NCBI GenBank assembly: GCA_965223155.1
Contig: CBDCVR010000002.1
Coordinates: forward strand, 1-15,805
From: Candidatus Multivoradales bacterium
GTDB taxonomy: Bacteria > Acidobacteriota > Thermoanaerobaculia > Multivoradales > JAHEKO01
Reading direction: 5' to 3'
Length of the DNA stretch: 15,805 bases
The notes below the pieces were generated by a model that saw only the letters and a program-made list of their open reading frames with translations, ran no database searches and was not told the DNA's origin. Shown in pieces: positions 1,545 through 3,807 of the stretch. How positions within the stretch are numbered: the stretch's first letter is position 1; every line of letters begins with the position of its first letter. The translations under genes were made by a program, and so were the position numbers.

Positions 1545-2054
1545 TTTTTTCAACCGCTTCGTCACTGGCTCGGAGTTCTTTTCGTTTTGCTCGCAGGGTG
1601 CTTCCACCTCGCATGCGTCGTGGCCAAGTCCCCATCCGCAGGTTATTTCTCTTCGCTGGACTACCAGGCCTGCGACACCTTGCGACAATCTCTCTTCAAG
1701 GAAGACCTGTCGCTTCTCTCCAACGAGGAGATCGAGATCATCCTGTCTTCCAAGATCGAGCTGCCGCGTGACGCGCGGTTGGCGCTGCTTCAACTAGGCG
1801 GGGATCCTCACGTGTTGGTACTGCCGGCGCCGGATGCCGAGGAGGACCAATCTCTGGCGGCGCTGTTTGAACGTCTTGCAGCCGCCGAGCGCCTTTCATC
1901 GGTGACTCTCCTGCCGTCGCTTCTGGTTCCTTCGACGCTTTCCGTTGCGAAGCTACGGGAAGCCGCCGCGCGCTTTCAAGCGGACCTCCTCTTCAGCTAC
2001 CGGACGCCCTGCCAGCAGTATCACCGAAATCGCTTCCTCAGGGAAATCCGCTGA
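1545..2054 (+). pseudogene. Lipoprotein gene lacking a proper start, possibly also C-terminally truncated
   Basis: The frame upstream of the listed TTG (1587) reads FFQPLRHWLGVLFVLLAGC, a signal peptide with an LAGC lipobox. It is closed by an in-frame TAG at 1542-1544 with no start codon before the hydrophobic stretch. Confidence 0.5.
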
Positions 2055-2117
2055 CAGGATACCTATTTCAAGGGAAGAATCCGGCCGCAAAGGGACACTC
2101 GAAATATGTATCCTTCT
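2052..2117. repeat. Imperfect inverted repeat whose right arm is the IS insertion site
   Basis: Left arm TGACA-GGATAC-C-TATTTC (2052-2069). Right arm GAAATA-T-GTATCC-(TTC)-TGTCA, completed only when 2101-2117 is joined to 3477-3480. Confidence 0.75.
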
Positions 2118-2131
2118 ATGAGTCGGTCGGT
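2118..2131. repeat. Sub-terminal inverted repeat, right end (IRR)
   Basis: ATGAGTCGGTCGGT, the exact reverse complement of 3456-3469. Confidence 0.93.
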
Positions 2132-2134
2132 TGG

Positions 2135-2160
2135 CGTCAAGAGTTTCGTTTCTTCTTTTT
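2135..2160 (-). promoter_or_regulatory. Outward-facing -35 hexamer with A-rich upstream tract, a candidate half of a circle-junction promoter
   Basis: The minus strand reads AAAAAGAAGAAACGAAACTC-TTGACG just inside IRR. The best -10 candidate across the junction (TAGATG, 16-nt spacer) is weak. Confidence 0.45.
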
Positions 2161-2370
2161 GTAGTTTTCCTTAGGTTTGGATCGAGGCTTGGGACGAGCT
2201 TCTATTCGCACTCTGTAGGGTTCTTCTTTGAACCGGTGCATGGTGAGTTTTGCGTCCGTTTAGGAATCGATGCTCCCATCTGTCACACGGTGTCGGGGCC
2301 ACCAAGGATACTTTCGGAGTCATCGAACCTCTCAATCCGTCCTTGCTTGTTGGTCGTCTAGTTATCTCTT
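2160..2370 (-). ncRNA. Putative bridge/seek RNA of the IS1111-group element (ends approximate)
   Basis: Unit 1 (2326 to 2267): ucgaug-a-cucc-gaaa-GUAUCCUU-ggug-loop-cacc-gu-GUGACAGA-ug-ggag-caucga, where both 8-mers match the IS flanks. Unit 2 (2257 to 2192): ggacg-caaaacucaccau-gcac...gugc-gaAUAGAAGcu-cgucc, with a partial match to the element end. Confidence 0.85.
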
Positions 2371-3384
2371 CTACGCTGCCTTGGGAAAGGCTCGGAAGCT
2401 CTCACCTGTCACCCACAGCCTGTGGAGCAACACCGCGATCTTCCTAGCTAGCGCGACCACGGCCTTGCCCTTACCCAGCCTCTCGACCAGGCCCTCAGCC
2501 CATCTCTTGAGTGACGACTCTTTGCGACAGTTCAACGCCGCATGAGCTGCCTGCACCAAGAGTCTGCGCATCTCCGAGTCGCCCTCGCGAGTGATCCGGC
2601 CCCTGACCTCATGCCCTCCTGAGCTGCGAAGCGACGGTCTCAAGCCCAGACACGCTCCGACGTCGCGGCTTTTCTCGAACCGATCCGGACGATCCATCCA
2701 GCCGACGAACGCAAGGCTCACCAGAGGCCCCACACCAGGAACCGTCTGCAGCCGACGGACCAGCTCGTTTGATCTCGACTCGGAGATGAGGTCGTCTTCG
2801 AGATGGTGGATCCGATCGGTCAGCTCGCCGATTGTCGTTACCAGAGGTTCGAGCGCTCCCAACAGGCCGGCTTCGACCGACATCGACGCGTACCGAGCCA
2901 CGAAGCTCTTCGCCGGACATGAGGGCACTCGGTAGCCCTGTGCCCGCAGCGTTCCGCGTACGGAGTTGATCAGCGAGGTCCTGGTCTTCACCAGACTCGT
3001 TCGGACCCGAAGACGCGTCCGAAGCTCTTGGGCCTCACCTGTGCGCTGGTAGACTGGTCGAAGCAAACCCAGATCCAACCGGCTCAAACGAGCCAGGATC
3101 TCGGCGTCGATTCCGTCCGTCTTCAGGGTCGATTCCGCGATCAGACGTACCCGGCGTGGATTGACCACCATCACCTCATGGCCGAGCTCAGACAGCAGTC
3201 GATAGACCCAGGGTGTGACCGGACCGCTCTCGAGCGTCACCTGCGAGCGTTCCCGATTGGCGAAGAACCTTCGCAGGCCCGTCTCGGTCGTCGGAACCCG
3301 CCGGCGAACCGTCACCTCACCGTCTTCTGATACGCCACACACCTCGCTGTACTTCGAGTGAACATCGATGCCAAGATACTCCAT
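2371..3384 (-). CDS. IS110-family transposase/recombinase, 337 aa
   Basis: RuvC-like DEDD residues (GIDVH, TLES, KTDGIDA), TVPGVG motif, and the Tnp-domain serine motif GLRPSLRSSGG followed by GRITREGD. Start placed at ATG 3384 (MEYLGIDV) because AAAGGAG lies just upstream. Confidence 0.96.
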   Translation of the reverse strand: MEYLGIDVHSKYSEVCGVSEDGEVTVRRRVPTTETGLRRFFANRERSQVTLESGPVTPWVYRLLSELGHEVMVVNPRRVRLIAESTLKTDGIDAEILARLSRLDLGLLRPVYQRTGEAQELRTRLRVRTSLVKTRTSLINSVRGTLRAQGYRVPSCPAKSFVARYASMSVEAGLLGALEPLVTTIGELTDRIHHLEDDLISESRSNELVRRLQTVPGVGPLVSLAFVGWMDRPDRFEKSRDVGACLGLRPSLRSSGGHEVRGRITREGDSEMRRLLVQAAHAALNCRKESSLKRWAEGLVERLGKGKAVVALARKIAVLLHRLWVTGESFRAFPKAA

Positions 3385-3462
3385 GGTCGGTCTCCTTTCT
3401 CGGCTCTGATGCCGATTCTTGGTTATCTCCAACTGGCACAGTGTCCCAGCTGGAGACCGACC
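3385..3462 (-). promoter_or_regulatory. Transposase RBS with an anti-SD inverted repeat
   Basis: GGTCGGTCTCC (3385-3395) and GGAGACCGACC (3452-3462) form a perfect 11-bp inverted repeat. On the minus-strand RNA it covers the GGAG Shine-Dalgarno up to the ATG. Confidence 0.7.
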
Positions 3463-3469
3463 GACTCAT
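3456..3469. repeat. Sub-terminal inverted repeat, left end (IRL)
   Basis: ACCGACCGACTCAT, the reverse complement of 2118-2131. Confidence 0.93.
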
Positions 3470-3507
3470 CTCATCTGTCACCGAATTCGCGAGCAAAGAA
3501 TGTAGAA

Positions 3508-3807
3508 ATGCCAGTAGCCCTACTCTACGTGATTCAATACTTCGTCTGGTTTGGTGGCCTCGCTGTTTGGCCAACGCTGCGACTGTTGCAAGGGACGAGC
3601 CGGGCAGAAGACCTCCTGCTCGGATCAATCTTCTTTCTGCACATTGTGGCCCAGACTTGGGCTCTCCGCCTGGTTGCGTCTTGTCGGGACACTACGCCCG
3701 ATTGGCTGCATTGCTTGATCGTCCCATTCTTGGTTGGCGTTCTCTCTATTATCGCTTCAGCGGTCGTCTTAGGGGTTACGCGCCACAAGCGTAAATCCCC
3801 GAAGTAG
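3508..3807 (+). CDS. Small membrane protein (about 3 TM), possible orphan immunity protein
   Basis: MPVALLYVIQYFVWFGG... has three hydrophobic segments and a basic tail. The longer listed ORF (from 3358) starts inside the IS, so ATG 3508 is preferred. Confidence 0.55.
   Translation: MPVALLYVIQYFVWFGGLAVWPTLRLLQGTSRAEDLLLGSIFFLHIVAQTWALRLVASCRDTTPDWLHCLIVPFLVGVLSIIASAVVLGVTRHKRKSPK

What the first reader, a model, noticed from the sequence alone, without database searches (positions are those of the whole stretch)
2192..2257. Second loop is a candidate donor-binding loop with one clear and one irregular guide
Seen: a second stem/loop/stem unit (ggacg/cgucc outer, gcac/gugc inner, gguuc/gaacc apical). 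One loop side contains AUAGA, complementary to TCTAT, which is the core plus the first bases of IRR in the predicted circle junction ACTCATCTCA-TCT-ATGAGT. The other side, ACUCACCAU, fits the left donor ACTCATCTCAT only with a bulge and a mismatch. Inference: the RNA is bispecific, but donor recognition may rely more on the protein binding the 14-bp inverted repeats.
Basis: partly seen in the sequence, partly recalled or inferred. Interest (0 to 1): 0.75.

Follow-up and report, generated by a model that had tools for sequence, protein, structure and literature searches.

The report
IS1111 bridge RNA donor-binding loop
This stretch is the part of a jumping gene's guide RNA that matches the element's own two ends, an ordinary but well-documented example of the recently discovered RNA-guided (bridge/seek RNA) insertion sequences.

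Summary
Window 2257-2192 (minus strand) lies in the 3' non-coding region of an IS110-family, IS1111-group insertion sequence. The IS is 2115-3474 and its transposase is 2371-3384(-). The genome holds 15 copies.

The flagged unit is real. A conserved hairpin is flanked by two short single-stranded guides.
- The 3' guide AUAGAAG (2205-2199) matches the right end plus core 7/7.
- The 5' guide CUCACCA (2247-2241) matches the left end plus core 5/7, with no bulge needed.

Seventeen empty sites and two exact occupied/empty pairs show that the duplicated core is CT, not TCT.

Across 38 related elements:
- The 3' guide equals the right end in 31 of 35.
- The 5' guide is imperfect in every one of 28. 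Its last core position never pairs.
- Both guides change together with the ends, 2 and 3 times on the transposase tree.
- Loop 1 follows the insertion sites instead.

The hairpin shows compensatory changes. The outer stem GGACG/CGUCC is strongly favoured in this copy but is not conserved.

Verdict: this is the donor-binding loop of a known kind of RNA. Whether the loop is required is open, because a target-loop-only RNA sufficed for ISEc11. No expression or circle-junction data could be obtained.

The parts
2115..3474 (-). Insertion sequence proper (1360 bp), IS110 family, IS1111 group
   Evidence: 15 left and 15 right junctions of this IS in the genome. Two exact occupied/empty pairs fix the boundaries.
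2113..2114 (+). Core CT copy at the junction next to the RNA end of the element (AG on the transposase strand)
   Evidence: Empty site GTATC-CT-GTCACC against occupied GTATC-CT-[IS]-CT-GTCACC.
3475..3476 (+). Second core CT copy
2371..3384 (-). Transposase/recombinase, 337 aa
   Evidence: Pfam DEDD_Tnp_IS110 (9.4e-25) and Transposase_20 (4.7e-21). GLRPSLRSSG fits the GL-P----S(t)G motif (motif as given in PMC11187229).
2118..2131 (.). Subterminal inverted repeat, arm at the RNA end (ATGAGTCGGTCGGT on +)
3456..3469 (.). Subterminal inverted repeat, arm at the transposase-start end
2115..2117 (-). 3-bp terminal extension (AGA on the transposase strand). With two bases of the repeat and the core it is the site matched by the 3' donor guide.
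3470..3474 (-). 5 bp of the left terminal extension (ATGAG on the transposase strand; 7 bp with the core). This is the site matched by the 5' donor guide.
2175..2345 (-). Approximate extent of the bridge/seek RNA fold. The RNA ends are not known.
   Evidence: Folds at -51.3 kcal/mol, z -2.44, 2 of 200 shuffles as good.
2305..2311 (-). Target guide GUAUCCU (5' side of loop 1)
   Evidence: 7/7 identical to GTATC-CT of the + strand target. Varies with the flank in relatives.
2280..2286 (-). Target guide GUGACAG (3' side of loop 1)
   Evidence: 7/7 complementary to CT-GTCAC. The 81% relative has GUGCCAG with the flank GGTGCC-AG.
2253..2257 (-). Outer stem 5' strand GGACG (local). A second GGACG at 2342-2338 could compete for the same partner.
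   Evidence: Pair probability 0.91-0.99 in this copy. Not conserved.
2241..2247 (-). 5' donor guide CUCACCA (the 'irregular' one)
   Evidence: 5/7 to CTCAT-CT. Position 2 follows ATGAG/ATGGG in 28 of 28 elements. Position 7 pairs in 0 of 28.
2208..2240 (-). Conserved hairpin: U.G, GCAC/GUGC, C-G, apical GGUUC/GAACC
   Evidence: GCAC/GUGC nearly invariant (the G-C pair kept in 27 of 28, the other three in 28 of 28); apical stem with compensatory changes.
2199..2205 (-). 3' donor guide AUAGAAG (the 'clear' one)
   Evidence: 7/7 to the right end plus core. Exact in 31 of 35 relatives. Its A/G position follows the end in 35 of 35.
2192..2196 (-). Outer stem 3' strand CGUCC
2135..2140 (-). TTGACG, a -35-like hexamer in front of the inverted repeat. 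Followed after 16 nt by TAGAAG (2118-2113), which spans the extension and core.
   Evidence: My own reading; CTTGAC or GTTGAC is present in 12 of the 13 relatives printed there (not in the truncated L027). The consensus promoter scan did not list it.

Best explanation
The flagged unit is the donor-binding module of the bridge RNA (seekRNA) of an IS1111-group insertion sequence.

The RNA is read from the transposase strand, downstream of the gene. A conserved hairpin (2240-2208) is presumably held by the recombinase. It presents two single-stranded guides.
- The 3' guide AUAGA-AG pairs with one strand of the element's right end (two bases of the repeat, the 3-bp extension and the CT core).
- The 5' guide CUCAC-CA pairs, imperfectly, with the other strand of the left 5-bp extension and the first core base.

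Loop 1 does the same for the target GTATC-CT-GTCAC. Recombination then takes place at the CT core between the joined ends of the excised circle and the target, as worked out for IS621.

Shown here: the boundaries, the core, the guide matches, their covariation with ends and flanks, and the hairpin covariation.

Inferred from the family: that the RNA is made, binds the protein, and pairs with DNA during recombination.
For: 1. The element is an IS1111-type IS.
- Pfam domains.
- A 14-bp subterminal repeat, 7-bp and 3-bp terminal extensions, and a long 3' non-coding region (the hallmarks are as stated in PMC11187229).

2. Exact boundaries and the CT core come from 17 empty sites and two occupied/empty pairs.

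3. In the window, three of the four expected guide words are exact. None of 20,000 shuffles had 3 or more.

4. Across 38 related elements (41-87% transposase identity):
- The 3' guide equals the right end plus core in 31 of 35.
- The 5' guide matches 5/7 in 21 and 6/7 in 5 of 28.
- Sliding the register by 1-4 nt drops the mean matches from 6.86 and 5.07 to at most 2.4 and 3.0.

5. Covariation.
- AUAGAAG goes with the end CATAGA, and AUGGAAG with CATGGA, in 35 of 35 elements.
- CUCA.. goes with ATGAG, and CCCA.. with ATGGG, in 28 of 28.
- On a tree of 33 transposases these are 3 and 2 changes, and the RNA follows every time.

6. Relatives whose extension is CCCAT carry CCCA in the guide although their repeat still ends in CTCAT. 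The guide therefore reads the extension, not the repeat.

7. Loop 1 follows the many different insertion sites. The best match to the flank in the RNA stretch upstream of the donor guide is 7/7 for the 3' target guide in 18 of 28 and for the 5' target guide in 10 of 35.

8. The hairpin has compensatory changes.

9. A copy of IS4321 at 28% identity has the same layout, with AUAGAUU equal to its right end plus flank and CUCAU on the 5' side.

10. Durrant et al. 2024 (PMC11208160, passages) predict bridge RNAs in the right end of 93% of IS1111 elements.
Against: - No evidence of expression. No RNA run holds the stretch.
- No circle junction was seen in public contigs.
- Rfam has no matching family.
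- The 5' guide is only 5/7. Its last core position pairs in 0 of 28 elements, so the donor loop does not meet the IS621 rule that all four guides include the core.
- The covariation rests on few events (2 and 3). The sign test cannot reach significance, p 0.5.
- For ISEc11, an IS1111 member, an 82-nt RNA holding only the target matches supported transposition at 42% (PMC11187229). The module may therefore be dispensable for at least one pathway.
- Folding energy does not tell which strand is the RNA. The + strand folds with z -2.21.
Confidence: 0.78

Rival explanations
1. The loop exists and matches the ends, but donor recognition is done mainly by the recombinase binding the 14-bp subterminal inverted repeats. 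Under this reading the RNA module is accessory. It might tune efficiency, or be needed for only one of two pathways, such as circle formation as opposed to direct transfer.
For: - An 82-nt target-loop-only seekRNA sufficed for ISEc11 movement (PMC11187229).
- IS1111 elements have long subterminal repeats that IS621-type elements lack.
- The 5' guide is degenerate in all 28 elements.
- A preprint reports a direct-transfer route that works with target-loop-only RNA, while circle formation needed the full RNA in an IS110-group element (10.1101/2025.10.25.684509, passages).
Against: - The hairpin and both guides are kept down to 41% transposase identity, and in IS4321 at 28%.
- The guides change when the ends change.
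- That is hard to explain if the pairing were unused.
Confidence: 0.3
2. The hairpin is only a protein-binding scaffold or an RNA-processing signal. The similarity of its flanks to the element ends is a relic, for example of an ancient duplication of end sequence, and involves no RNA-DNA pairing.
For: - The inner stem and neighbouring bases (AUGCACCG...GAGUGCG) are nearly invariant, as expected of a protein contact.
- There are few independent covariation events.
- Short and long RNA species are known in this family.
Against: - The end-like words sit at a fixed register next to the hairpin. They follow the ends in all 5 changes on the tree.
- The layout mirrors loop 1, whose pairing role is shown by many different targets.
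Confidence: 0.08
3. The functional transcript comes from the + strand (antisense to the transposase), or the stretch acts at the DNA level as an internal pseudo-end.
For: - Both DNA strands of target and donor are matched, so complementarity alone does not fix the RNA strand.
- The + strand folds as well (z -2.21).
Against: - A conserved U.G pair closing the hairpin would be A.C on the other strand. It is U.G in 10 of 10 sequences, and the same letters are visible in 27 of 28 rows.
- In the studied IS1111 members the RNA maps to the 3' non-coding region of the transposase transcript (PMC11187229).
- No inverted repeat accompanies the internal end-like words.
Confidence: 0.03

Closest known systems
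seekRNAs of IS1111-family elements ISEc11, ISPa11, ISKpn4 (Siddiquee et al. 2024, PMC11187229)
   Same: - DEDD transposase of about 340 aa with the GL-P----SG motif.
- Subterminal inverted repeats.
- 7-bp and 3-bp terminal extensions.
- RNA in the 3' non-coding region.
- The match complementary to the top strand of the target lies 5' of the bottom-strand match.
- Site-specific insertion into a repeated sequence.
   Different: - That paper assigns only the target matches. It leaves end recognition and the role of the long RNA open (discussion read).
- Here a second module that matches the ends is traced by comparison.
- There is no experimental evidence for this element.
IS621 bridge RNA (Durrant et al. 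2024, PMC11208160; Hiraizumi et al. 2024, PMC11208158)
   Same: - Two modules, each with two guides reading opposite strands around a CT core.
- A 5' guide identical to one strand and a 3' guide complementary to it.
- One donor guide is irregular in IS621 too (a discontiguous pairing).
- The position next to the core on the left donor is mismatch-tolerant in IS621, and it is one of the two mismatches here.
- The two bases after the 3' target guide (AU, 2279-2278) are complementary to the donor bases next to the core, as for the IS621 handshake guide.
   Different: - The RNA lies after the gene, and the guides are inverted relative to the transposase.
- Long subterminal repeats are present.
- The 5' donor guide never pairs with the outer core base (0 of 28).
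- In distant relatives the donor guides sit in a multiloop rather than an internal loop, as Durrant et al. note for many IS1111 elements.
IS4321/IS5075 (IS1111 family, plasmid-borne; copy read here in locus L077)
   Same: - The same order: 5' word CUCAU, hairpin, two-base spacer, then AUAGAUU equal to the right end plus flank.
- The same AGA right extension.
   Different: - 28% transposase identity.
- A different repeat and a different target.
- I had no empty site for it, so its core is not fixed here.

Membership tests
IS110 family, IS1111 group | DEDD (RuvC-like) N-terminal domain plus the PF02371 C-terminal domain | tested here: met
   PF01548 at 9.4e-25 and PF02371 at 4.7e-21.
IS110 family, IS1111 group | C-terminal GL-P----S(t)G motif (as given in PMC11187229) | tested here: met
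   GLRPSLRSSG in the translation.
IS110 family, IS1111 group | Subterminal inverted repeats of about 11-13 bp | tested here: met
   14 bp, at 2118-2131 and 3456-3469.
IS110 family, IS1111 group | Asymmetric terminal extensions, 7 bp left and 3 bp right (PMC11187229 introduction) | tested here: met
   AGATGAG and AGA on the transposase strand, once the boundaries are fixed by empty sites.
IS110 family, IS1111 group | Longer non-coding region downstream of the transposase gene | tested here: met
   About 240 nt from the stop codon to the repeat, against about 70 nt upstream of the start.
IS110 family, IS1111 group | Insertion at one specific sequence in one orientation | tested here: met
   14 of 15 left flanks end in GTATCCT (one in GCATCCT). 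All 15 right flanks of this IS begin CTGTCACC.
IS110 family, IS1111 group | Circular intermediate with a promoter formed at the junction | not testable with these tools
   No joint in public contigs. The promoter scan lists nothing on the minus strand. TTGACG-16-TAGAAG is only my own reading.
Bridge RNA / seekRNA | A target loop with two guides matching opposite strands of the target, including the core | tested here: met
   GUAUCCU and GUGACAG, 7/7 each. They follow the flanks in relatives.
Bridge RNA / seekRNA | A donor loop with two guides matching opposite strands of the joined ends, including the core | tested here: inconclusive
   The 3' guide is 7/7. The 5' guide is 5/7 and pairs with only one of the two core bases; its last position pairs in 0 of 28 elements.
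Bridge RNA / seekRNA | Guides covary with the target and with the donor across relatives | tested here: met
   The donor side rests on only 2 and 3 changes.
Bridge RNA / seekRNA | The RNA is expressed and bound by the recombinase | not testable with these tools
   No RNA run is listed as holding the stretch.
Bridge RNA / seekRNA | Match to a curated RNA family model | tested here: inconclusive
   No Rfam 15 family matched at E up to 1, apart from a chance snoRNA hit inside the gene. The library may hold no model for this RNA.

The most novel reading that the evidence does not exclude
In IS1111-type elements the donor module is built to be lopsided. The guide for the right end is exact. The guide for the left end is kept degenerate: it never pairs with the outer core base, and it is often mismatched next to the core. 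The long subterminal repeats bound by the protein may make up for the weak side. Such an asymmetry could set which junction reacts first, or could bias insertion over excision. It could also explain why a target-loop-only RNA can move ISEc11 while the donor module is still conserved.
Probability: 0.2. Interest if true: 0.55.

Novelty: new member of a known kind. Interest (0 to 1): 0.35.

Why it matters
For this genome, the work gives an exact annotation of an active-looking IS family. It has 15 copies, 17 free target sites, and two insertions that appear both occupied and empty in the assembly. A co-resident relative carries the same donor module but a retargeted target loop.

For the field, the result is a clean comparative case that IS1111-type elements keep an end-matching module beside the target loop. 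That bears on a question the literature states openly: how the donor is recognised when a target-loop-only RNA is enough (PMC11187229; 10.1101/2025.10.25.684509).

It does not reveal a new kind of system.

Tried and rejected
- **Rfam scan of 1900-3700:** no relevant family.
- **The search for related loci in genome contigs:** gave only 2 loci. The order-wide protein search and a phylum-wide pattern search gave the comparative set.
- **Phylum pattern search:** it left the five guide bases free but found only AUAGAAG and AUGGAAG, so no further variants were gained.
- **Public runs:** no RNA holder is listed. Contigs of 4 runs showed no joint across the element ends and none that skips the element; they break at the IS borders.
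- **Promoter and terminator scan:** nothing on the minus strand.
- **Folding the opposite strand:** it folds as well, so energy does not decide the strand.
- **First attempt to parse the target-loop guides with fixed anchors:** it failed for most loci and was replaced by a best-match search.
- **Automatic parse of right ends:** it mis-read L028. One search shows ATAGAAG, and the parse was corrected.
- **Distal pairing of CGUCC with the second GGACG (2342-2338):** the consensus fold of 10 relatives chose it. I rejected it for this copy, where forcing it gives -42.7 against -51.3 kcal/mol. It remains open for relatives.
- **The idea that the G092 element multiplied without the donor module:** rejected. 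Only 1 of its 4 copies is truncated there.
- **Earlier notes of this scan:** none for this place.
- **Supplementary files of the papers:** not seen. The supplements of PMC11187229 (long seekRNA folds) and the extended data of PMC11208160 (IS1111 guide assignments) may already show equivalent donor guides for named elements.

Full report
**What is at the coordinates.** Read on the minus strand, 2257-2192 is GGACG-CAAAACUCACCAU-GCAC-...-GUGC-GAAUAGAAGCU-CGUCC.
- The 66-nt unit folds in that way at -14.8 kcal/mol, z -2.0, with 6 of 200 shuffles as good.
- A 171-nt stretch (2345-2175) folds into a closing helix that holds two stem/internal-loop/stem arms. Its energy is -51.3 kcal/mol, z -2.44, with 2 of 200 shuffles as good.
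- In that ensemble the outer stem of the flagged arm has pair probabilities of 0.91-0.99.

**The surroundings.**
- The unit lies just downstream of a 337-aa gene on the same strand (2371-3384). The protein carries the Pfam domains DEDD_Tnp_IS110 and Transposase_20.
- It also carries GLRPSLRSSG. This fits the GL-P----S(t)G motif that Siddiquee et al. give for IS1111 transposases (PMC11187229, section read).
- The assembly holds 15 copies of the element. It also holds two copies of a relative that is 81% identical in DNA.
- 14 of 15 left flanks end in GTATCCT, and one in GCATCCT. All 15 right flanks begin CTGTCACC.

**Boundaries and core.**
- The word GTATCCTGTCACC occurs 17 times without the element. 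By my own arithmetic about 0.1 occurrences are expected by chance in 4 Mb.
- For two copies on small contigs, the same 25-nt left flank and the same 20-nt right flank are found abutted elsewhere in the genome with a single CT between them.
- Insertion therefore reads GTATC-CT-[2115-3474]-CT-GTCACC. Only CT is duplicated, at 2113-2114 and 3475-3476.
- On the transposase strand the element has a 7-bp left extension (AGATGAG, counting one core copy), a 14-bp subterminal inverted repeat (3469-3456 and 2131-2118), and a 3-bp right extension (AGA).
- The repeats, the 7/3 extensions and the downstream non-coding region are the features by which the IS1111 group is told from the IS110 group (PMC11187229, passages and section).

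With the CT core, the joined ends should read ...CTCAT-CT-TCTAT..., which is 3 nt longer.
With the corrected junction it matches over 7 nt (AUAGAAG, 2205-2199).
- The 5' side aligns without any bulge. CUCAC-CA (2247-2241) lies against CTCAT-CT, 5 of 7. The mismatches are at the base next to the core and at the outer core base.

**Loop 1 against loop 2.**
- Loop 1 carries GUAUCCU (2311-2305), identical to GTATC-CT. It also carries GUGACAG (2286-2280), complementary to CT-GTCAC.
- The spacing of guides and stems is parallel in the two loops. Each has a few unpaired bases, five guide bases plus two core bases, then the inner stem on the 5' side. On the 3' side each has about two spacer bases (GA in loop 2), five plus two, two more bases, then the outer stem.
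- Three of the four expected 7-nt words are exact in the 240-nt non-coding region. None of 20,000 mononucleotide shuffles had three or more, and 17 had two.
- The 81% relative in the same genome keeps loop 2 and both ends. Its loop 1 reads AAAGGGU and GUGCCAG, and its two copies lie in GGTGCC-AG...AG-CCTTT and GGTTCC-AG...AC-CCTTT.

**How the comparative set was built.**
- A protein search of 300 genomes of the same order found matches in 48 at E 1e-40 or better, this genome included, and gave 30 loci.
- One further locus came from the search for related loci.
- Eleven came from a pattern search of 401 genomes of the phylum.
- Rows dropped: L026 (the same sequence as L022); L027, L044 and L052 (no 3' motif found by my expression; L027 is a truncated copy); L062 (no transposase hit); L054 (from an unpublished genome, neither read nor used).
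- This left 38 elements at 41-87% transposase identity. The right end could be read in 35 and the left end in 28.

**Comparative evidence for loop 2.**
- The 3' guide equals the last five bases of the element plus the core in 31 of 35 elements. It matches 6/7 in three and 5/7 in one.
- Two of the exceptions (L025, L032) differ only at the core positions, where the flank instead matches the loop-1 guide.
- The 5' guide matches 5/7 in 21 elements, 6/7 in 5, 4/7 in 1 and 3/7 in 1. By position the matches are 27, 28, 28, 22, 12, 25 and 0 of 28.
- Sliding either guide by 1-4 nt lowers the mean matches from 6.86 and 5.07 to at most 2.4 and 3.0.
- Where the right extension is GGA instead of AGA, the RNA has AUGGAAG instead of AUAGAAG (35 of 35 concordant).
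- Where the left extension is ATGGG instead of ATGAG, the RNA has CCCA.. instead of CUCA.. (28 of 28 concordant).
- All four combinations of the two states occur.
- On a maximum-likelihood tree of 33 transposases these are 3 and 2 changes, and the RNA follows each. With so few events the sign test cannot reach significance (p 0.5).
- Elements with the extension CCCAT still have a repeat ending in CTCAT. The 5' guide therefore reads the extension, not the repeat.

**Comparative evidence for loop 1.** Loop 1 follows many different flanks. The best match to the flank within the RNA stretch upstream of the donor guide is 7/7 for the 3' target guide in 18 of 28 elements and 6/7 in 8. For the 5' target guide it is 7/7 in 10 of 35 and 6/7 in 14. 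In most elements these matches lie at a fixed spacing of 23-25 nt; in several of the weaker ones they do not.

**Structure across relatives.**
- In a 28-sequence alignment of the unit, the consensus fold keeps only the hairpin.
- GCAC/GUGC and the next C-G pair are nearly invariant (the first G-C pair is A-C in 1 of 28).
- Four apical pairs show both-side changes in 11, 11, 5 and 3 sequences.
- The outer stem is not in that consensus.
- A consensus of 10 closer relatives pairs CGUCC with a second GGACG at 2342-2338, upstream of loop 1. That would place the donor guides in a three-way junction.
- The more distant relatives have no local complement at all.
- In single-sequence folds of the 38 elements, the strand after the 3' guide pairs locally in 9, distally in 12, elsewhere in 11, and not at all in 6.
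- For this copy the local stem wins clearly, at -51.3 against -42.7 kcal/mol when the distal pairing is forced.
The conserved unit is guide-hairpin-guide.
- Durrant et al. remark that in many IS1111 elements the donor-binding bases sit in a multiloop (PMC11208160, passage).

**A distant named relative.** A copy of IS4321 on a Klebsiella plasmid has 28% identity to the transposase. It shows the same order...AACUCAUCGA, a hairpin, GG, then AUAGAUU. Its right end is ...CCATAGA followed by TTCC, and its left end is ...TAATGAG before the repeat. I had no empty site for it, so its core is not fixed here.

**Comparison with what is known.**
- In IS621 each loop has a left guide that pairs with the bottom strand and a right guide that pairs with the top strand, and the CT core is included in all four. 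One donor pairing is discontiguous, and the left-donor position next to the core tolerates mismatch (PMC11208160, passages; PMC11208158, passages).
- The present RNA has the same logic seen from the RNA. It lies after the gene, so the order of the matches is inverted relative to the transposase, as Siddiquee et al. report for IS1111 elements (abstract, section).
- The two bases after the 3' target guide (AU, 2279-2278) are complementary to the donor bases next to the core (AT), like the IS621 handshake guide. The corresponding two bases of loop 2 (CU) do not fit this element's target, though they fit the target type of its relatives.
- The difference from IS621 is that the 5' donor guide never pairs with the outer core base.

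**What remains open.**
- Nothing here shows that the RNA is made or that the loop is needed.
- Siddiquee et al. found that an 82-nt RNA with the target matches moved an ISEc11 mini-element at 42%. They left the role of the longer RNA and the recognition of the ends open (sections read).
- A preprint poses the resulting question directly and reports a direct-transfer route for target-loop-only RNA in an IS110-group element (10.1101/2025.10.25.684509, passages).
- No RNA run was listed and no junction-spanning contig was found, Rfam has no matching family, and folding energy does not decide the strand.

**Verdict.** This is a correct call of a donor-binding loop in a new member of a known kind of element. 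The core and junction are corrected. The 'one clear, one irregular guide' pattern turns out to be a property of the whole lineage.

Noticed in passing
window 2050-2063, and 17 places in the genome: The target word belongs to a longer repeat family whose flanks are shared between sites. An inverted near-copy (GCTGACAGGATACC, one mismatch to the target) lies 44 nt (2064-2107) from the occupied site and overlaps the stop codon of ORF 1587-2054. This looks like a REP/REPIN-type doublet, a usual target of this IS family.
   Followed up: partly
L016 (G000:C13:297851-299225) and L017 (G000:C15:372319-373687): A second lineage, 81% identical in DNA, lives in the same genome. It has identical ends and an identical donor module but a retargeted target loop (AAAGGGU / GUGCCAG). 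Its recombinase-RNA complex could in principle act on the ends of either lineage.
   Followed up: partly
G000 contigs C7 and C11 against C14 (places): Two insertions are present on small contigs, while the same flanks are abutted and empty on a large contig. This is either a duplication or a mixed population in the assembly, that is, recent movement.
   Followed up: partly
window 2140-2113 (minus strand): TTGACG, 16 nt, then TAGAAG, spanning the end of the element and the core. CTTGAC or GTTGAC stands before the repeat in 12 of the 13 relatives printed. It may be the outward promoter that would read into the transposase gene after circle formation. The consensus scan did not list it.
   Followed up: partly
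window 2198-2197 and 2279-2278: Candidate handshake bases. AU after the 3' target guide fits the donor. CU after the 3' donor guide does not fit this target, but it fits the GG of the relatives' targets. In the distant clade, AC fits its target GT in 9 elements listed.
   Followed up: partly
L027 (G092:C4:803436-807443): One of four copies of a 79% relative is cut off inside the 5' donor guide and continues into sequence that I read as the end of another transposase gene. The other three copies are intact.
   Followed up: yes
G000:C13:297800-307800: A cluster of several copies and fragments of the two IS lineages and of empty target sites lies within 10 kb.
   Followed up: no
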